Shown here one piece after another: positions 3,546 to 56,900 of a stretch of 64,000 nucleotides of DNA. The position numbers and the translations under genes were made by a program. The stretch is from NCBI GenBank assembly GCA_964016885.1, contig OZ024748.1, positions 44,082,001 through 44,146,000 on the forward strand, given 5' to 3'. Position 1 is the stretch's first letter. Each line of letters opens with the position of its first letter. Origin of the DNA: Eledone cirrhosa. Taxonomy: Eukaryota. Below the pieces are notes generated by a model. That model was given only the letters and a program-made list of their open reading frames with translations, was not told the DNA's origin and made no database searches.

Positions 3546-5797
3546 AGAGCTGAATGACTTAACTTTGTCTGTGAAGTATTTTCTGGAGTTGGAGAGCTGA
3601 ATGACTGATGTCTGTTGTCTGTGGAGTATTTTCTGGAGTTGGAGAGCTGAATGACTGATGTCTGTTGTCAGTGGAGTATTTTCTGGAGTTGGAGAGCTGA
3701 ATGGCTGATGTCTGTTGTCTGGAGTATTTTCTGGAGTTGGAGAGCTGAATGTCTGTTGTCTGTGGAGTATTTTCTGGAGTTGGAGAGCTGAATGACTGAT
3801 GTCTGTTGTCAGTGGAGTATTTTCTGGAGTTGGAGAGCTGAATGACTGATGTCTGTTGTCTGTGGAGTATTTTCTGGAGTTGGAGAGCTGAATGATTGAG
3901 CTCTGTTGTCTGTGGAGTATTTTCTGGAGTTGAAGAGCTGAATGGCTGATGTCTGTTGTCTGTGGAGTATTTTCTGGAGTTGGAGAGCTGAATGACTGAT
4001 GTCTGTTGTCTGTGGTCTGTGGAGTATATTCTGGAGTTGGAGAGCTGAATGGCTGATGTCTGTTGTCAGTGGAGTATTTTCTGGAGTTGGAGAGCTGAAT
4101 GGCTGATGTCTGTTGTCTGTGGAGTATTTTCTGGAGTTGGAGAGCTGAATGGCTGATGTCTGTTGTCAGTGGAGTATTTTCTGGAGTTGAACTGAATGAT
4201 TGAGCTCTGTTGTCTGTGGAGTATTTTCTGGAGCTGAATGGCTGATGTCTGTTGTCAGTGGAGTATTTTCTGGAGTTGGAGAGCTGAATGGCTGATGTCT
4301 GTTGTCTGTGGAGTATTTTCTGGAGTTGGAGAGCTGAATGACTGATGTCTGTTGTCTGTGGAGTATTTTCTGGCTGAATGGCTGATGTCTGTTGTCAGTG
4401 GAGTATTTTCTGGAGTTGAACTGAATGATTGAGCTCTGTTGTCTGTGAAGTATTTTCTGGAGTTGAAGAGCTGAATGGCTGATGTCTGTTGTCAGTGGAG
4501 TATTTTCTGGAGTTGGAGAGCTGAATGGCTGATGTCTGTTGTCTGTGGAGTATTTTCTGGAGTTGGAGAGCTGAATGACTGATGTCTGTTGTCTGTGGAG
4601 TATTTTCTGGAGTTGAAGAGCTGAATGACTGATGTCTGTTGTCTGTGAAGTATTTTCTGGAGTTGAAGAGCTGAATGGCTGATGTCTGTTGTCTGTGGAG
4701 TATTTTCTGGAGTTGGAGAGCTGAATGACTGATGTCTGTTGTCTGTGGAGTATTTTCTGGAGTTGAAGAGCTGAATGGCTGATGTCTGTTGTCTGTGGAG
4801 TATTTTCTGGAGTTGAAGAGCTGAATGGCTGATGTCTGTTGTCTGTGGAGTATTTTCTGGAGTTGAAGAGCTGAATGATTGAGCTCTGTTGTCTGTGGAG
4901 TATTTTCTGGAGTTGGAGAGCTGAATGACTGATGTCTGTTGTCTGTGGAGTATTTTCTGGAGTTGAAGAGCTGAATGGCTGATGTCTGTTGTCTGTGGAG
5001 TATTTTCTGGAGTTGACGAGCTGAATGGCTGATGTCTGTTGTCTGTGGAGTATTTTCTGGAGTTGAAGAGCTGAATGGCTGATGTCTGTTGTCTGTGGAG
5101 TATTTTCTGGAGTTGAAGAGCTGAATGATTGAGCTCTGTTGTCTGTGGAGTATTTTCTGGAGTTGGAGAGCTGAATGACTGATGTCTGTTGTCTGTGAAG
5201 TATTTTCTGGAGTTGAAGAGCTGAATGGCTGATGTCTGTTGTCTGTGGAGTATTTTCTGGAGTTGAAGAGCTGAATGGCTGATGTCTGTTGTCTGTGGAG
5301 TATTTTCTGGAGTTGAAGAGCTGAATGGCTGATGTCTGTTGTCTGTGGAATATTTTCTGGAGTTGGAGAGCTGAATGACTGATGTCTGTTGTCTGTGGAG
5401 TATTTTCTGGAGTTGGAGAGCTGAATGATTGAGCTCTGTTGTCTGTGGAGTATTTTCTGGAGTTGAAGAGCTGAATGATTGAGCTCTGTTGTCTGTGGAG
5501 TATTTTCTGGAGTTGAAGAGCTGAATGATTGAGCTCTGTTGTCTGTGGAGTATTTTCTGGAGTTGGAGAGCTGAATGATTGAGCTCTGTTGTCTGTGGAG
5601 TATTTTCTGGAGTTGGAGAGCTGAATGACTGATCTCTGTTGTCTGTGGAGTATTTTCTGGAGTTGGAGAGCTGAATGATTGAGCTCTGTTGTCTGTGGAG
5701 TATTTTCTGGAGTTGGAGAGCTGAATGATTGAGCTCTGTTGTCTGTGGAGTATTTTCTGGAGTTGGAGAGCTGAATGGCTGATGTCTGTTGTCTGTG
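3546..5797. repeat. Minisatellite, 50-bp unit, ~45 copies
   Basis: Unit AGAGCTGAATGACTGATGTCTGTTGTCTGTGGAGTATTTTCTGGAGTTGG with interspersed variants. Confidence 0.98.
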
Positions 5798-6364
5798 AAT
5801 TGGTTAATATTTTATTTTTTTAAAATTTATATATATATATTGGACAGGAATATTTCCAAGCAGAAACTTTATTGAAGACCAGACTTAGTACTTTGTTTAA
5901 TGAGGCCTGTGGTGGCATTACACCAAAGTGGAATGGAACTAGACACCTGACAAGATGTGTGACTCAACAACAATCTTAAATTACATGTAAAACATGCAGC
6001 AGGGATACTGTGTACCTATTCTAAAAACTGATTGAATATAAACACCTTCTGCAATCCTTCAGACATTGTGATGGGAGAAGTAGTGGTTAGGTTGGGTTGT
6101 ATTAAACTCAGGTTCACTAGTAATCCTCATTACATGGTTAGTATGTTGTAGTTAATAAGCAAGAAATGGTCTGTCCTAGATGACAGGTTGGATAGATACG
6201 CAAGCAGATTAGTTCAGTGATTAAACAAGAGAGCAAGTGATAGATGGGAGTGTATGAAAGCGGAGTGATGTTGGGGTCAGTATGTAGATTTAACCAGAAT
6301 GTATTGAGCAATAGACCAACCACAAATGTCTCTATACCTCTTAGCTTTTATTATTACAACTACC

Positions 6365-53900: not shown

Positions 53901-56900
53901 CCCAATGTGTCCAAGCCGTAACAACCACCATGTCTCTCCAGTGTTGCCCAATGTGTCCAAGCCGCAACCACCAGGTCCCTCCAGTGTTTCCCAATGTGTC
54001 CAAGCCGTAACAACCACCATGTCTCTCCAGTGTTTCCCAATGTGTCCAAGCCGTAACCACCACCAGGTCCCTCCAGTGTTGCCCAATGTGTCCAAGCCGC
54101 AACCACCAGGTCCCTCCAGTGTTTCCCAATGTGTCCAAGCCGTAACAACCACCATGTCTCTCCAGTGTTTCCCAATGTGTCCAAGCCGTAACCACCACCA
54201 GGTCCCTCCAGTGTTGCCCAATGTGTCCAAGCCGTAACCACCACCAGGTCCCTCCAGTGTTGCCCAATGTGTCCAAGCCGCAACCACCAGGTCCCTCCAG
54301 TGTTTCCCAATGTGTCCAAGCCGTAACAACCACCAGGTCCCTCCAGTGTTTCCCAATGTGTCCAAGCCGTAACAACCACCAGGTCCCTCCAGTGTTTCCC
54401 AATGTGTCCAAGCCGTAACAACCACCAGGTCCCTCCAGTGTTTCCCAATGTGTCCAAGCCGTAACAACCACCATGTCTCTCCAGTGTTTCCCAATGTGTC
54501 CAAGCCGTAACAACCACCATGTCTCTCCAGTGTTGCCCAATGTGTCCAAGCCGTAACAACCACCATGTCTCTCCAGTGTTTCCCAATGTGTCCAAGCCGT
54601 AACCACCACCAGGTCCCTCCAGTGTTGCCCAATGTGTCCAAGCCGCAACCACCAGGTCCCTCCAGTGTTGCCCAATGTGTCCAAGCCGCAACCACCAGGT
54701 CCCTCCAGTGTTTCCCAATGTCTCCAAGCCGTAACCACCACCAGGTCCCTCCAGTGTTTCCCAATGTCTCCAAGCCGTAACCACCACCAGGTCCCTCCAG
54801 TGTTGCCCAATGTGTCCAAGCCGCAACCACCAGGTCCCTCTAGTGTTGCCCAATGTGTCCAAGCCGCAACCACCAGGTCCCTCCAGTGTTGCCCAATGTG
54901 TCCAAGCCGCAACCACCAGGTCCCTCCAGTGTTGCCCAATGTGTCCAAGCCGCAACCACCACCAGGTCCCTCCAGTGTTGCCCAATGTGTCCAAGCCGCA
55001 ACCACCACCAGGTCCCTCCAGTGTTGCCCAATGTGTCCAAGCCGCAACCACCACCAGGTCCCTCCAGTGTTGCCCAATGTGTCCAAGCCGCAACCACCAC
55101 CAGGTCCCTCCAGTGTTGCCCAATGTGTCCAAGCCGCAACCACCACCAGGTCCCTCCAGTGTTTCCCAATGTGTCCAAGCCGTAACCACCACCAGGTCCC
55201 TCCAGTGTTTCCCAATGTGTCCAAGCCGTAACCACCACCAGGTCCCTCCAGTGTTTCCCAATGTGTCCAAGCCGTAACCACCACCAGGTCCCTCCAGTGT
55301 TTCCCAATGTGTCCAAGCCGTAACCACCACCAGGTCCCTCCAGTGTTTCCCAATGTGTCCAAGCCGTAACCACCACCAGGTCCCTCCAGTGTTTCCCAAT
55401 GTGTCCAAGCCGTAACCACCACCAGGTCCCTCCAGTGTTTCCCAATGTGTCCAAGCCGTAACCACCACCAGGTCCCTCCAGTGTTTCCCAATGTGTCCAA
55501 GCAGTAACCACCACCAGGTCCCTCCAGTGTTTCCCAATGTGTCCAAGCAGTAACCACCACCAGGTCCCTCCAGTGTTTCCCAATGTGTCCAAGCCGTAAC
55601 CAGCTAGAATGATGTCTCTGTCATCTGTAACTAGAAGTTCCTCATGGGAACAGTCTTTTTGTTCTTTACTAAAAAAAATAACCCACCCCACCCCAATCAG
55701 ATCTTCAGGGGATGTATGAAAACAATCCTGCATCACAGCATCCTTCATACCTCAATGAAAACGGCCCATATATATATATATATATATATATATATATATA
55801 AACTAATACATTTAAAATGTCCTTTATTTCTCTTTTGAACTTGATTATTTTTTCTTATTTTCACAGATCCTATTGTTAAAGAACAAGGGAGGACGTCCTC
55901 AATGTCTGGTCAAACATCTCCTACGCCTATCAATAACTCATCACAAATAGGAGGTAATTAGACATTTCTTACTTGATCATTGAAATGTTTAATATCACCA
56001 GCATTATTTAACTCTACAACAATAAATTAGCAGAAAATATCTCAAAATGTGTCGTCTGTTCATTAAAATGTTTATATCTTTATTACAAGACAAATTGTTG
56101 TGGAAATTTGCCTTAACCCTTTAGCATTTAAACCGGCCATATCCGACCACGATTCTCTCACCTCTTTCTGTTCAAACCAGCTGTAACTGGCCACTCATAC
56201 ATATGTTAAGGTATTGTTATCAAAATCTCGTAGATTCGGTATTATGTGAGCTAATTATGAAAATATAATAGTAAATATAGAGTAATTTAAATGTTAAAGG
56301 GTTAAACTATAAAGACTTTAATGTGATGCAATCCTGGGGCTGTTTTGTATTTTTCAAGAATGTCTTGCTAATGTGGTTTAATGCGGTACAGGAGTTAATG
56401 GTCTATTTCCATGCTTGTCTGGGCTAGATATGTTACGTTCTGAGGCAATATTGATCAGGTGACCATGTCTTGTTTATACATTGCATTTTTAGTTTGGTTT
56501 CAATGGCTAGATGCCCTTGGTCACACCAACTGCTTAATGCTGGGAGTATTTTATTGTGACACCTGGACTGCCATCTTACAGGGTGGACTGGGTGCTTCTA
56601 GTCATGACACCAGCATTACTCCCTTTACAGTGTGGGCTGGGTGTTTTTTGTCGCAGCACCAGCATTACCCCCCTTACAGAGTGGACCGGGCACATTTTAT
56701 TGTGGCACCAGCACTACCAATTTACATGATATACTGGGTGCATTTTATCATGTCACCAGCAAACCACCTTAGAAGTTTCACAGGATGCTTTTTGTTGGGA
56801 TTCTTAGCCATTTTCCAGTAGTAGCATGCTGTTCTGTTGATCAAACAACTGAAGTCTTCATTATGAGAACAGAGAAGTTACAACAACAACAACAGCAGTC

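What the first reader, a model, noticed from the sequence alone, without database searches (positions are those of the whole stretch)
3546..55600. Locus-wide generation of unrelated minisatellites from whatever sequence is local, including SINEs, a MITE and a LINE
Seen: at least 11 arrays with different units (24, 27, 33, 35, 43, 46, 47, 50, 57, 61, 72 bp), ~18-19 kb in total, inside one housekeeping gene. Each unit occurs only once in the window. Four sit inside recognisable transposons with both flanks preserved. Inference: these are in-situ amplifications rather than a dispersed satellite family. That points to an active local duplication-amplification process (slippage, template switching or unequal exchange) as a route to intron inflation. 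A subtelomeric position is a simple alternative explanation. This is my best candidate for an undescribed system, but it is a mutational pattern and no function is shown.
Basis: partly seen in the sequence, partly recalled or inferred. Interest (0 to 1): 0.7.

Follow-up and report, generated by a model that had tools for sequence, protein, structure and literature searches.

The report
Minisatellites inflating octopod kinase-gene introns
Eleven different tandem repeats fill 18.6 kb of this gene's introns, but similar repeats turn up in about half of the 10-kb stretches sampled across this likely octopus genome and two of the eleven belong to transposon-borne families found at many sites, so this is a rich example of a known, genome-wide process, likely tilted towards long methylated genes, rather than a special local system.

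Summary
Observation confirmed: 11 arrays, 18,590 bp, all in introns of a CK2-alpha gene; two introns are over 90% array. The locus-specific reading fails. Of 106 systematic 10-kb tiles, 54 carry such an array (about 9% of the genome, weighted); the window is about twice the mean, P 0.04-0.08 before allowing for its selection. It lies 16.5 Mb from the chromosome end. Six units are essentially single-locus, three were not searched. SINE, MITE and LINE hosts are verified, yet arrays are not TE-enriched over local background (47/126 vs 277/605). TE-derived and single-locus minisatellites are well described. What remains open: arrays favour CpG-depleted tiles (24/30 vs 25/70, replicated), though compact chaperonin genes lack them (1/14), and 72-bp units are more alike between loci than their hosts. 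The scan noted this genome-wide pattern before on other DNA of this genome.

The parts
3546..5797 (.). 50-bp minisatellite, 45.6 copies, first coding intron; single locus
8449..8795 (+). Decayed tRNA-type SINE holding the 43-bp array (8529-8790); 5' flank kept, 3' part lost; not searched genome-wide
18775..20146 (.). 47-bp minisatellite, ~29 copies; single locus
21262..21434 (.). 24-bp minisatellite, 7.3 copies; no relative in the sampled tiles, not searched genome-wide
29075..30236 (+). SINE (same family as the 43-mer host) split by the 57-bp array (29139-30167, 18.1 copies); both flanks kept; terminal units keep an 8-bp piece that inner units lost; single locus
30418..37423 (+). 35-bp array (200 copies, 6,994 bp) ending in the decayed 3' end of a ~330-bp MITE-like element whose internal 43/35-bp repeat is arrayed at many loci
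39321..39863 (.). 61-bp minisatellite, 8.7 copies; single locus; supported by contigs of same-species runs
40257..40466 (.). 27-bp minisatellite, 7.8 copies; no relative in the sampled tiles, not searched genome-wide
42869..43624 (.). 33-bp minisatellite, 22.7 copies, interrupted at 43096-43137 by a short retroposon tail; one weak hit elsewhere (76%)
49874..50630 (+). TTAA-ended MITE with terminal inverted repeats, holding the 72-bp array (49888-50533); middle of the MITE deleted at the array's right end; same unit and junction at about ten other sampled loci
51180..55669 (-). Decayed LINE endonuclease fragment split by the 46-bp array (51213-55600, 97 copies); both flanks kept; single locus; abuts a SINE head at 51100-51181
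26794..57941 (+). CK2-alpha coding exons 2-12 (26794-26905, 27762-27863, 28871-28921, 37700-37759, 37989-38072, 39135-39245, 40649-40750, 41576-41676, 50933-51081, 55869-55953, 57842-57941); first coding exon about 16.1 kb upstream of the window
   Evidence: exon ends read from the sequence

Best explanation
The eleven arrays are real intronic minisatellites of a kind found throughout this genome; most likely arose in place by a short duplication of whatever DNA was there and then likely grew by slippage and unequal exchange, while the 35-bp and 72-bp arrays are multi-locus repeats of two small DNA-transposon-like elements that likely expanded after insertion and likely exchange units between copies. 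Step 1 (inferred): a 20-100-bp segment is duplicated, sometimes between short direct repeats (4-6 bp at the 57-mer junction). Step 2 (pattern shown, cause inferred): single units and multi-unit blocks are copied within the array. Step 3 (inferred): introns tolerate the gain, so some grow about tenfold. No function is indicated. The window is in the upper tail of a genome-wide distribution that is tilted towards the smaller chromosomes and towards CpG-depleted DNA.
For: Background: 54/106 systematic tiles with an array, 0.80 per 10 kb; 0.90 on the smaller chromosomes, 0.41 on the four giant ones; weighted cover 8.7% (bootstrap 4.6-14.7%). Single-locus units. Multi-locus: 35-mer 93-97% identical to a 4.5-kb array on C4, 37 candidate places; element flanks shared at 6 loci and a near single-unit copy on C1; 72-mer in 12 runs (about 11 elements) in 1.84 Mb with nearly the same junction. 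Parent elements. TE-like units 47/126 vs background 277/605, p 0.09. Variant maps: repeated 8-unit block in the 35-mer; neighbouring units identical 0.56 vs 0.18 expected in the 46-mer. Units between loci 8.1% apart vs 14.2% for plain MITE heads, while tails are 16.2% vs 17.3%.
Against: The window is still about twice background (10 arrays vs 5.1-5.8 expected, P 0.04-0.08; cover P 0.04-0.05; cover P 0.02 among CpG-low tiles of small chromosomes). The short-overhang signature of microhomology birth is weak overall (23 vs 17 expected, P 0.06, 73 arrays). The 50-, 47- and 57-mer maps show no neighbour or block signal. Exchange between MITE copies rests on 12 runs and 26 plain copies; an array-bearing subfamily is not excluded, and L083 has host-type units. 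Three units (24, 27, 43) were not searched genome-wide, and the DNA search can miss diverged copies. No polymorphism data.
Confidence: 0.75

Rival explanations
1. Long, constitutively transcribed, gene-body-methylated genes generate or keep arrays at a higher rate (transcription- or methylation-linked breaks repaired with local duplication). This adds a cause to the best explanation rather than replacing it.
For: CpG o/e vs array count rho -0.40, p 3e-5, 100 tiles; 24/30 low-CpG vs 25/70 other tiles; holds in C9+C12 alone, 9/10 vs 10/29, p 0.003 and after allowing for microsatellite load (r -0.36). In this gene the 5' 16 kb (o/e about 0.7 where measurable) has no array and the depleted part (0.25-0.38) has all 11. 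Octopus methylation is on bodies of stably expressed genes (PMC9476566, passages).
Against: Chaperonin (PF00118) gene tiles are CpG-depleted (median 0.40) but only 1 of 14 has an array. CpG decay measured in SINE copies correlates only weakly (rho 0.21, p 0.10, 60 tiles). Tiles are length-weighted, so genes made long by arrays are over-sampled. CpG depletion is a proxy; no methylome; the tiles are unannotated. Arrays continue downstream where o/e is 0.44-0.85.
Confidence: 0.25
2. A regional effect: the window sits at the edge of a satellite-rich, possibly low-recombination domain of C8, where long arrays are not trimmed.
For: Three of 20 C8 tiles (24.5, 36.5, 39.5 Mb) are wholly satellite and continue into the next tiles; 42.5 Mb holds 5.7 kb; 11 of 16 tiles at 43.0-46.1 Mb have arrays.
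Against: 70 kb just upstream of the gene has no array of 150 bp or more; C9 and C12 have similar counts per tile; no recombination map or centromere position is known.
Confidence: 0.15
3. A locus-specific array-generating system acts on this gene.
For: Density about twice background; every 10-kb tile of the window has an array; two introns over 90% array.
Against: P about 0.05 in a genome of some 46,000 such windows means thousands as rich (inference); P 0.3-0.4 for the count among CpG-low tiles; arrays continue for 95 kb downstream of the window; 41% of array bases are multi-locus families; no shared unit motif or strand bias; no Rfam RNA in the window.
Confidence: 0.05
4. Subtelomeric position.
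For: SINE-derived satellites of squamates prefer subtelomeres (PMC10702118).
Against: Window at 44.1 Mb of 60.6 Mb; distance to end vs cover rho 0.09, p 0.52, 60 tiles (the tiles come no closer than 0.5-1.7 Mb to an end, so a narrow terminal excess is not tested).
Confidence: 0.03
5. Assembly artefact.
For: Lengths of the long arrays were not checked against long reads.
Against: Recurrent variants in ordered patterns; same-species contigs enter and leave the 61-mer with 0 differences and unit contigs have depth 17-40 vs 3-8 in the flanks (probably the source sample, so not independent); no N in the window.
Confidence: 0.03

Closest known systems
TE-derived minisatellites of the human genome (Ahmed and Liang 2012, PMC3389668; read abstract and Results section)
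   Same: Units cut from SINEs and LINEs, mostly single-locus with a minority multi-locus, grown by local duplication; hotspots inside some TEs; 23% of arrays TE-derived.
   Different: There TE-derived arrays are 0.32% of the genome and Alu-derived ones average 2.3-2.4 units; here arrays cover roughly 9% of sampled DNA, with tens to hundreds of units.
SINE-derived satellites of squamates (Vassetzky et al. 2023, PMC10702118; read abstract and Discussion)
   Same: Part of a SINE repeated in tandem with longer terminal units still matching the SINE, as in the 43- and 57-mers.
   Different: Those are multi-locus and subtelomeric; the 57-mer is single-locus and interstitial, and most arrays here are not SINE-derived.
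MITE-borne satellites Xstir/Xmix and miDNA4 of Xenopus (seen only as passages and table rows in PMC9659126 and PMC6947457)
   Same: A monomer born inside a MITE and amplified in tandem at many loci, as for the 72-mer and the 35/43-mer.
   Different: Here the window's 35-mer has lost the 5' part of its host, and units of separate loci look younger than their hosts.
Euchromatic satellite spread: Rsp-like into 1.688 clusters in Drosophila (PMC7403614, passages) and Cast1-9 in Tribolium (10.1101/2023.04.24.538079, abstract)
   Same: Arrays in gene-rich DNA, recent exchange between loci and chromosomes, local growth by unequal exchange.
   Different: A few families dominate there; here most sampled arrays (94 of 126) had no same-unit partner. 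No circular-DNA evidence here.
Haber and Louis (1998) model of minisatellite birth between 5-10-bp direct repeats (seen only as cited in PMC6947457 and PMC3389668)
   Same: 4-6-bp repeat at the 57-mer junction and a second microhomology-type deletion inside its unit.
   Different: Only a weak excess of short overhangs across 73 arrays.

Membership tests
Minisatellite / VNTR | Head-to-tail units of about 10-100 bp, arrays of 0.1-20 kb | tested here: met
   periods 24-72 bp, arrays 173-6,994 bp
Minisatellite / VNTR | Interspersed recurrent unit variants | tested here: met
   variant maps of five arrays
Minisatellite / VNTR | Copy number varies between alleles or individuals | not testable with these tools
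   only short contigs of one sample cover the locus
Single-locus minisatellite | Unit arrayed at one place only | tested here: met
   46, 47, 50, 57, 61; 33 with one weak hit; 24, 27, 43 not searched
Single-locus minisatellite (35- and 72-mers) | Unit arrayed at one place only | tested here: not met
TE-derived tandem repeat | Unit aligns to a dispersed element in register with its flanks | tested here: met
   57 (both flanks), 43 (5' flank), 72 (both), 46 (both), 35 (3' end only); none found for 24, 27, 33, 47, 61; 50 only weak hits
MITE-borne satellite (Xstir/miDNA4 type) | Array inside a short non-coding element with terminal inverted repeats, at many loci | tested here: met
   72-mer: TIRs and TTAA ends, 12 runs in 1.84 Mb; 35/43-mer: shared flanks, TIRs only read by eye
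MITE-borne satellite (Xstir/miDNA4 type) | Array spread by transposition of an array-bearing subfamily | tested here: inconclusive
   tails of array-bearing copies no closer to each other than plain copies (16.2 vs 17.3%), units closer (8.1 vs 14.2%)
piggyBac-type or T2 MITE | Matching autonomous transposase family | not tested
   label rests on TTAA ends and recall; no partner sought
Subtelomeric satellite | Near a chromosome end | tested here: not met
   16.5 Mb from the nearer end
eccDNA-spread euchromatic satellite | Unit present on extrachromosomal circles | not testable with these tools
   needs circle sequencing

The most novel reading that the evidence does not exclude
Octopod genomes grow by a third route beside transposons and microsatellites: complex minisatellites, near a tenth of the DNA, are born from any sequence preferentially inside long methylated gene bodies, and once a repeat junction exists in a common element it is copied into other, older copies of that element on other chromosomes, so arrays are contagious within a transposon family.
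Probability: 0.22. Interest if true: 0.62.

Novelty: new member of a known kind. Interest (0 to 1): 0.33.

Why it matters
As a single locus it is ordinary for this genome. As a sample of the genome it points to a large repeat class that short-read assemblies would collapse, and it shows introns of an essential kinase gene inflated tenfold without a transposon insertion. If the bias to methylated gene bodies or the exchange between MITE copies holds, it would tie tandem-repeat birth to transcription-linked repair and make satellite spread testable at thousands of independent loci in one genome.

Tried and rejected
Housekeeping-gene rule: rejected in its simple form, 1 of 14 chaperonin tiles and 3 of 20 glutamate-receptor (PF00060) tiles have an array. 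Chromosome-end trend: none. TE enrichment of units: none. Shared carrier flanks next to the 35-mer at C4, C17, C22: none by blastn; the host was found only from the decayed C4 flank, and its 5' part scored nothing in the window, C17 or C22. A one-frame translation and a DNA search of the 46-mer's left flank showed only a SINE head; the LINE was shown from the right flank. Automatic collapsing of arrays failed for the 57- and 33-mers and was replaced by family profiles. Ortholog in organism B: its contig leaves the window sequence at 39297 and does not bridge the 61-mer, so absence is not shown. No RNA holder listed. No tRNA or Rfam match. Paper searches for an octopod minisatellite load or a link to gene-body methylation found none (listings only); the library is partial and supplements of octopus genome papers, which may tabulate tandem-repeat content, were not read.
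Full report
Setting. The window is G000:C8:44,082,001-44,146,000 of a 3.0-Gb assembly; C8 is 60.6 Mb, so the nearer end is 16.5 Mb away. I take the animal to be an octopod from recall of its SINEs and from the wording of earlier scan notes; no call named it. The gene is CK2-alpha: 11 coding exons read from the sequence, kinase domain, best PDB matches all CK2-alpha. 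Its first coding exon lies about 16.1 kb upstream, so the coding span is about 74 kb.

Observation. TRF reports the 11 arrays with the stated periods; they total 18,590 bp. Ten simulations with the window's local composition gave none. All are intronic; the introns 28922-37699 and 51082-55868 are 91% and 92% array. Same-species contigs run into and out of the 61-mer without a difference and its unit contigs are about 4-6 times deeper than the flanks; these runs are probably the assembly's own sample, and the long arrays were not checked against reads.

Is the locus special? I counted complex-unit arrays (period 15 or more, 3 or more copies, 80% or more matches, 150 bp or more, not microsatellite-like) in 106 evenly placed 10-kb tiles: 20 each on C8, C9 and C12, 22 on the four giant chromosomes, 24 on others. 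Tiles near the window, gene-targeted tiles and family loci were left out of this background. The filter keeps 10 of the window's 11 arrays. 54 of 106 tiles have an array; 0.80 per 10 kb; 5 tiles are wholly satellite; cover weighted by chromosome class is 8.7% (bootstrap 4.6-14.7%), and much less on the giant chromosomes without their one satellite tile. The window has about twice the mean count (P 0.04-0.08) and was chosen for being rich; among CpG-depleted tiles of small chromosomes its count is ordinary (P 0.3-0.4), its base cover still high (P 0.02). Arrays continue for 95 kb downstream and are absent from 70 kb upstream. There is no trend with distance to the chromosome end in 60 tiles.

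Are the units locus-specific? Eight of 11 were tested beyond the window. The 46-, 50-, 47-, 61- and 57-mers each gave one candidate place, the 33-mer one more at 76%. The 35-mer gave 37 candidates, with a 4.5-kb array on C4 at 93-97% and 43-bp or mixed arrays on C17 and C22; only 150 of 557 matches were listed. Its decayed C4 flank led to further loci on C1-C4, C8 and small contigs; six share about 200-300 bp of 5' flank, several share a 3' end, and one on C1 has only one or two units. So it is the internal repeat of an old MITE-like element; the window keeps only the decayed 3' end (E 1e-6 for last unit plus end) and a local unit variant has swept the array. The 72-mer was tested in the tiles: 12 runs (about 11 elements) in 1.84 Mb, nearly all with the window's junction, against 93 single heads. 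These two arrays are 7,605 of 18,590 bp. In the whole sample 32 of 126 arrays already have a same-unit partner.

Hosts. A SINE profile places the 43-mer (5' flank only) and the 57-mer (both flanks) in one family. The 57-mer's ends share a 4-6-bp repeat and its terminal units keep 8 bp that inner units lost, so it took at least two events. The 72-mer lies in a 220-bp element with inverted ends and TTAA. The 46-mer splits a LINE endonuclease remnant: both flanks align to sampled LINE copies above all 200 shuffles, and one of those copies carries PF14529. Five of 11 arrays, 71% of the bases, thus have an element of origin. Across the sample, units match dispersed repeats no more often than neighbouring DNA (47 of 126 vs 277 of 605, p 0.09), which supports 'whatever is local'.

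Mechanism. Shown: ordered variants, with a repeated 8-unit block in the 35-mer and runs of identical units in the 46-mer; the 50-, 47- and 57-mers show no such order. Inferred: birth by short duplication, growth by slippage and unequal exchange (the Haber-Louis scheme as cited in PMC6947457). The short-overhang test for microhomology birth is only suggestive (P 0.06). For the 72-mer, single inner units of different loci are 8.1% apart against 14.2% for plain heads, while tails are 16.2% against 17.3% (12 runs, 10 with tails, 26 plain copies; a looser first pass gave 7.9 vs 20.6%). Independent growth from each host's own decayed segment does not predict this; exchange between copies does, and an array-bearing subfamily is not excluded. 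Earlier scan notes propose such exchange for other element families, and a LINE that targets this 72-bp repeat; I saw one LINE ending at a 72-bp unit.

CpG link. Arrays are commoner in CpG-depleted tiles (24 of 30 vs 25 of 70; rho -0.40; 6 of 106 tiles dropped for too little unmasked sequence), and this held in the C9 and C12 tiles drawn after the first test (9 of 10 vs 10 of 29). In this gene the arrays coincide with the depleted part. Octopus methylation marks bodies of stably expressed genes (PMC9476566, passages). Against a simple rule: chaperonin genes are depleted but nearly free of arrays (1 of 14 tiles), CpG decay in SINE copies gives only rho 0.21, p 0.10, and length-weighted sampling favours genes that arrays made long.

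Known systems. TE-derived minisatellites, mostly single-locus, are 23% of human arrays (PMC3389668); SINE-derived satellites are described in squamates (PMC10702118); MITE-borne satellites in Xenopus (passages in PMC9659126); spread between euchromatic loci in Drosophila and Tribolium. What differs here is scale and array length. My searches found no paper on this load in octopods, with the limits given under Tried and rejected.

Verdict. Interest 0.33; the open leads are the CpG bias and exchange between element copies.

Noticed in passing
L067 (C17:10.0 Mb), about 6020-9775, minus strand: A LINE with ORFs of 451 and 730 residues ends directly on a 72-bp MITE unit, fitting earlier notes of a LINE that targets this repeat.
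   Followed up: partly
L024:4401-7520 and L089:1318-4026: LINE ORFs with endonuclease, reverse transcriptase and a PHD finger just after the RT match.
   Followed up: no
L013 (C8:44,166,900-44,167,700): A 72-bp MITE array split by a later SINE insertion, which dates the array before that insertion.
   Followed up: partly
L012 and L034/L121/L122 (C8:44.16 Mb and 39.49-39.52 Mb): A 48-bp unit from the end of a second TTAA element forms a 1.1-kb array and a block of at least 30 kb, 94-96% alike.
   Followed up: partly
window 10737-10845, 45430-45559, 56575-56718: A common SINE carries decayed internal 48/49-bp repeats; the same unit forms arrays at 7 sampled loci, one filling a whole tile on C12.
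   Followed up: partly
window 43096-43137: A 42-bp retroposon tail sits inside the 33-bp array; units differ on its two sides.
   Followed up: no
window 2543-2880 and 8913-9250: Two very similar copies of one composite SINE 6.4 kb apart, both after a TTCAT microsatellite; possibly a recent local copy or conversion (read by eye).
   Followed up: no
all tiles: Microsatellite load and complex-unit arrays tend to exclude each other: CpG-depleted gene tiles hold about 0.1-0.2 kb of microsatellite per 10 kb against 1.5-1.7 kb elsewhere.
   Followed up: partly
window 57942-62450: A long stretch without mobile elements follows the stop codon, with an 860-bp mixed TA/TG microsatellite at 58586-59445; possibly a long 3' UTR.
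   Followed up: no
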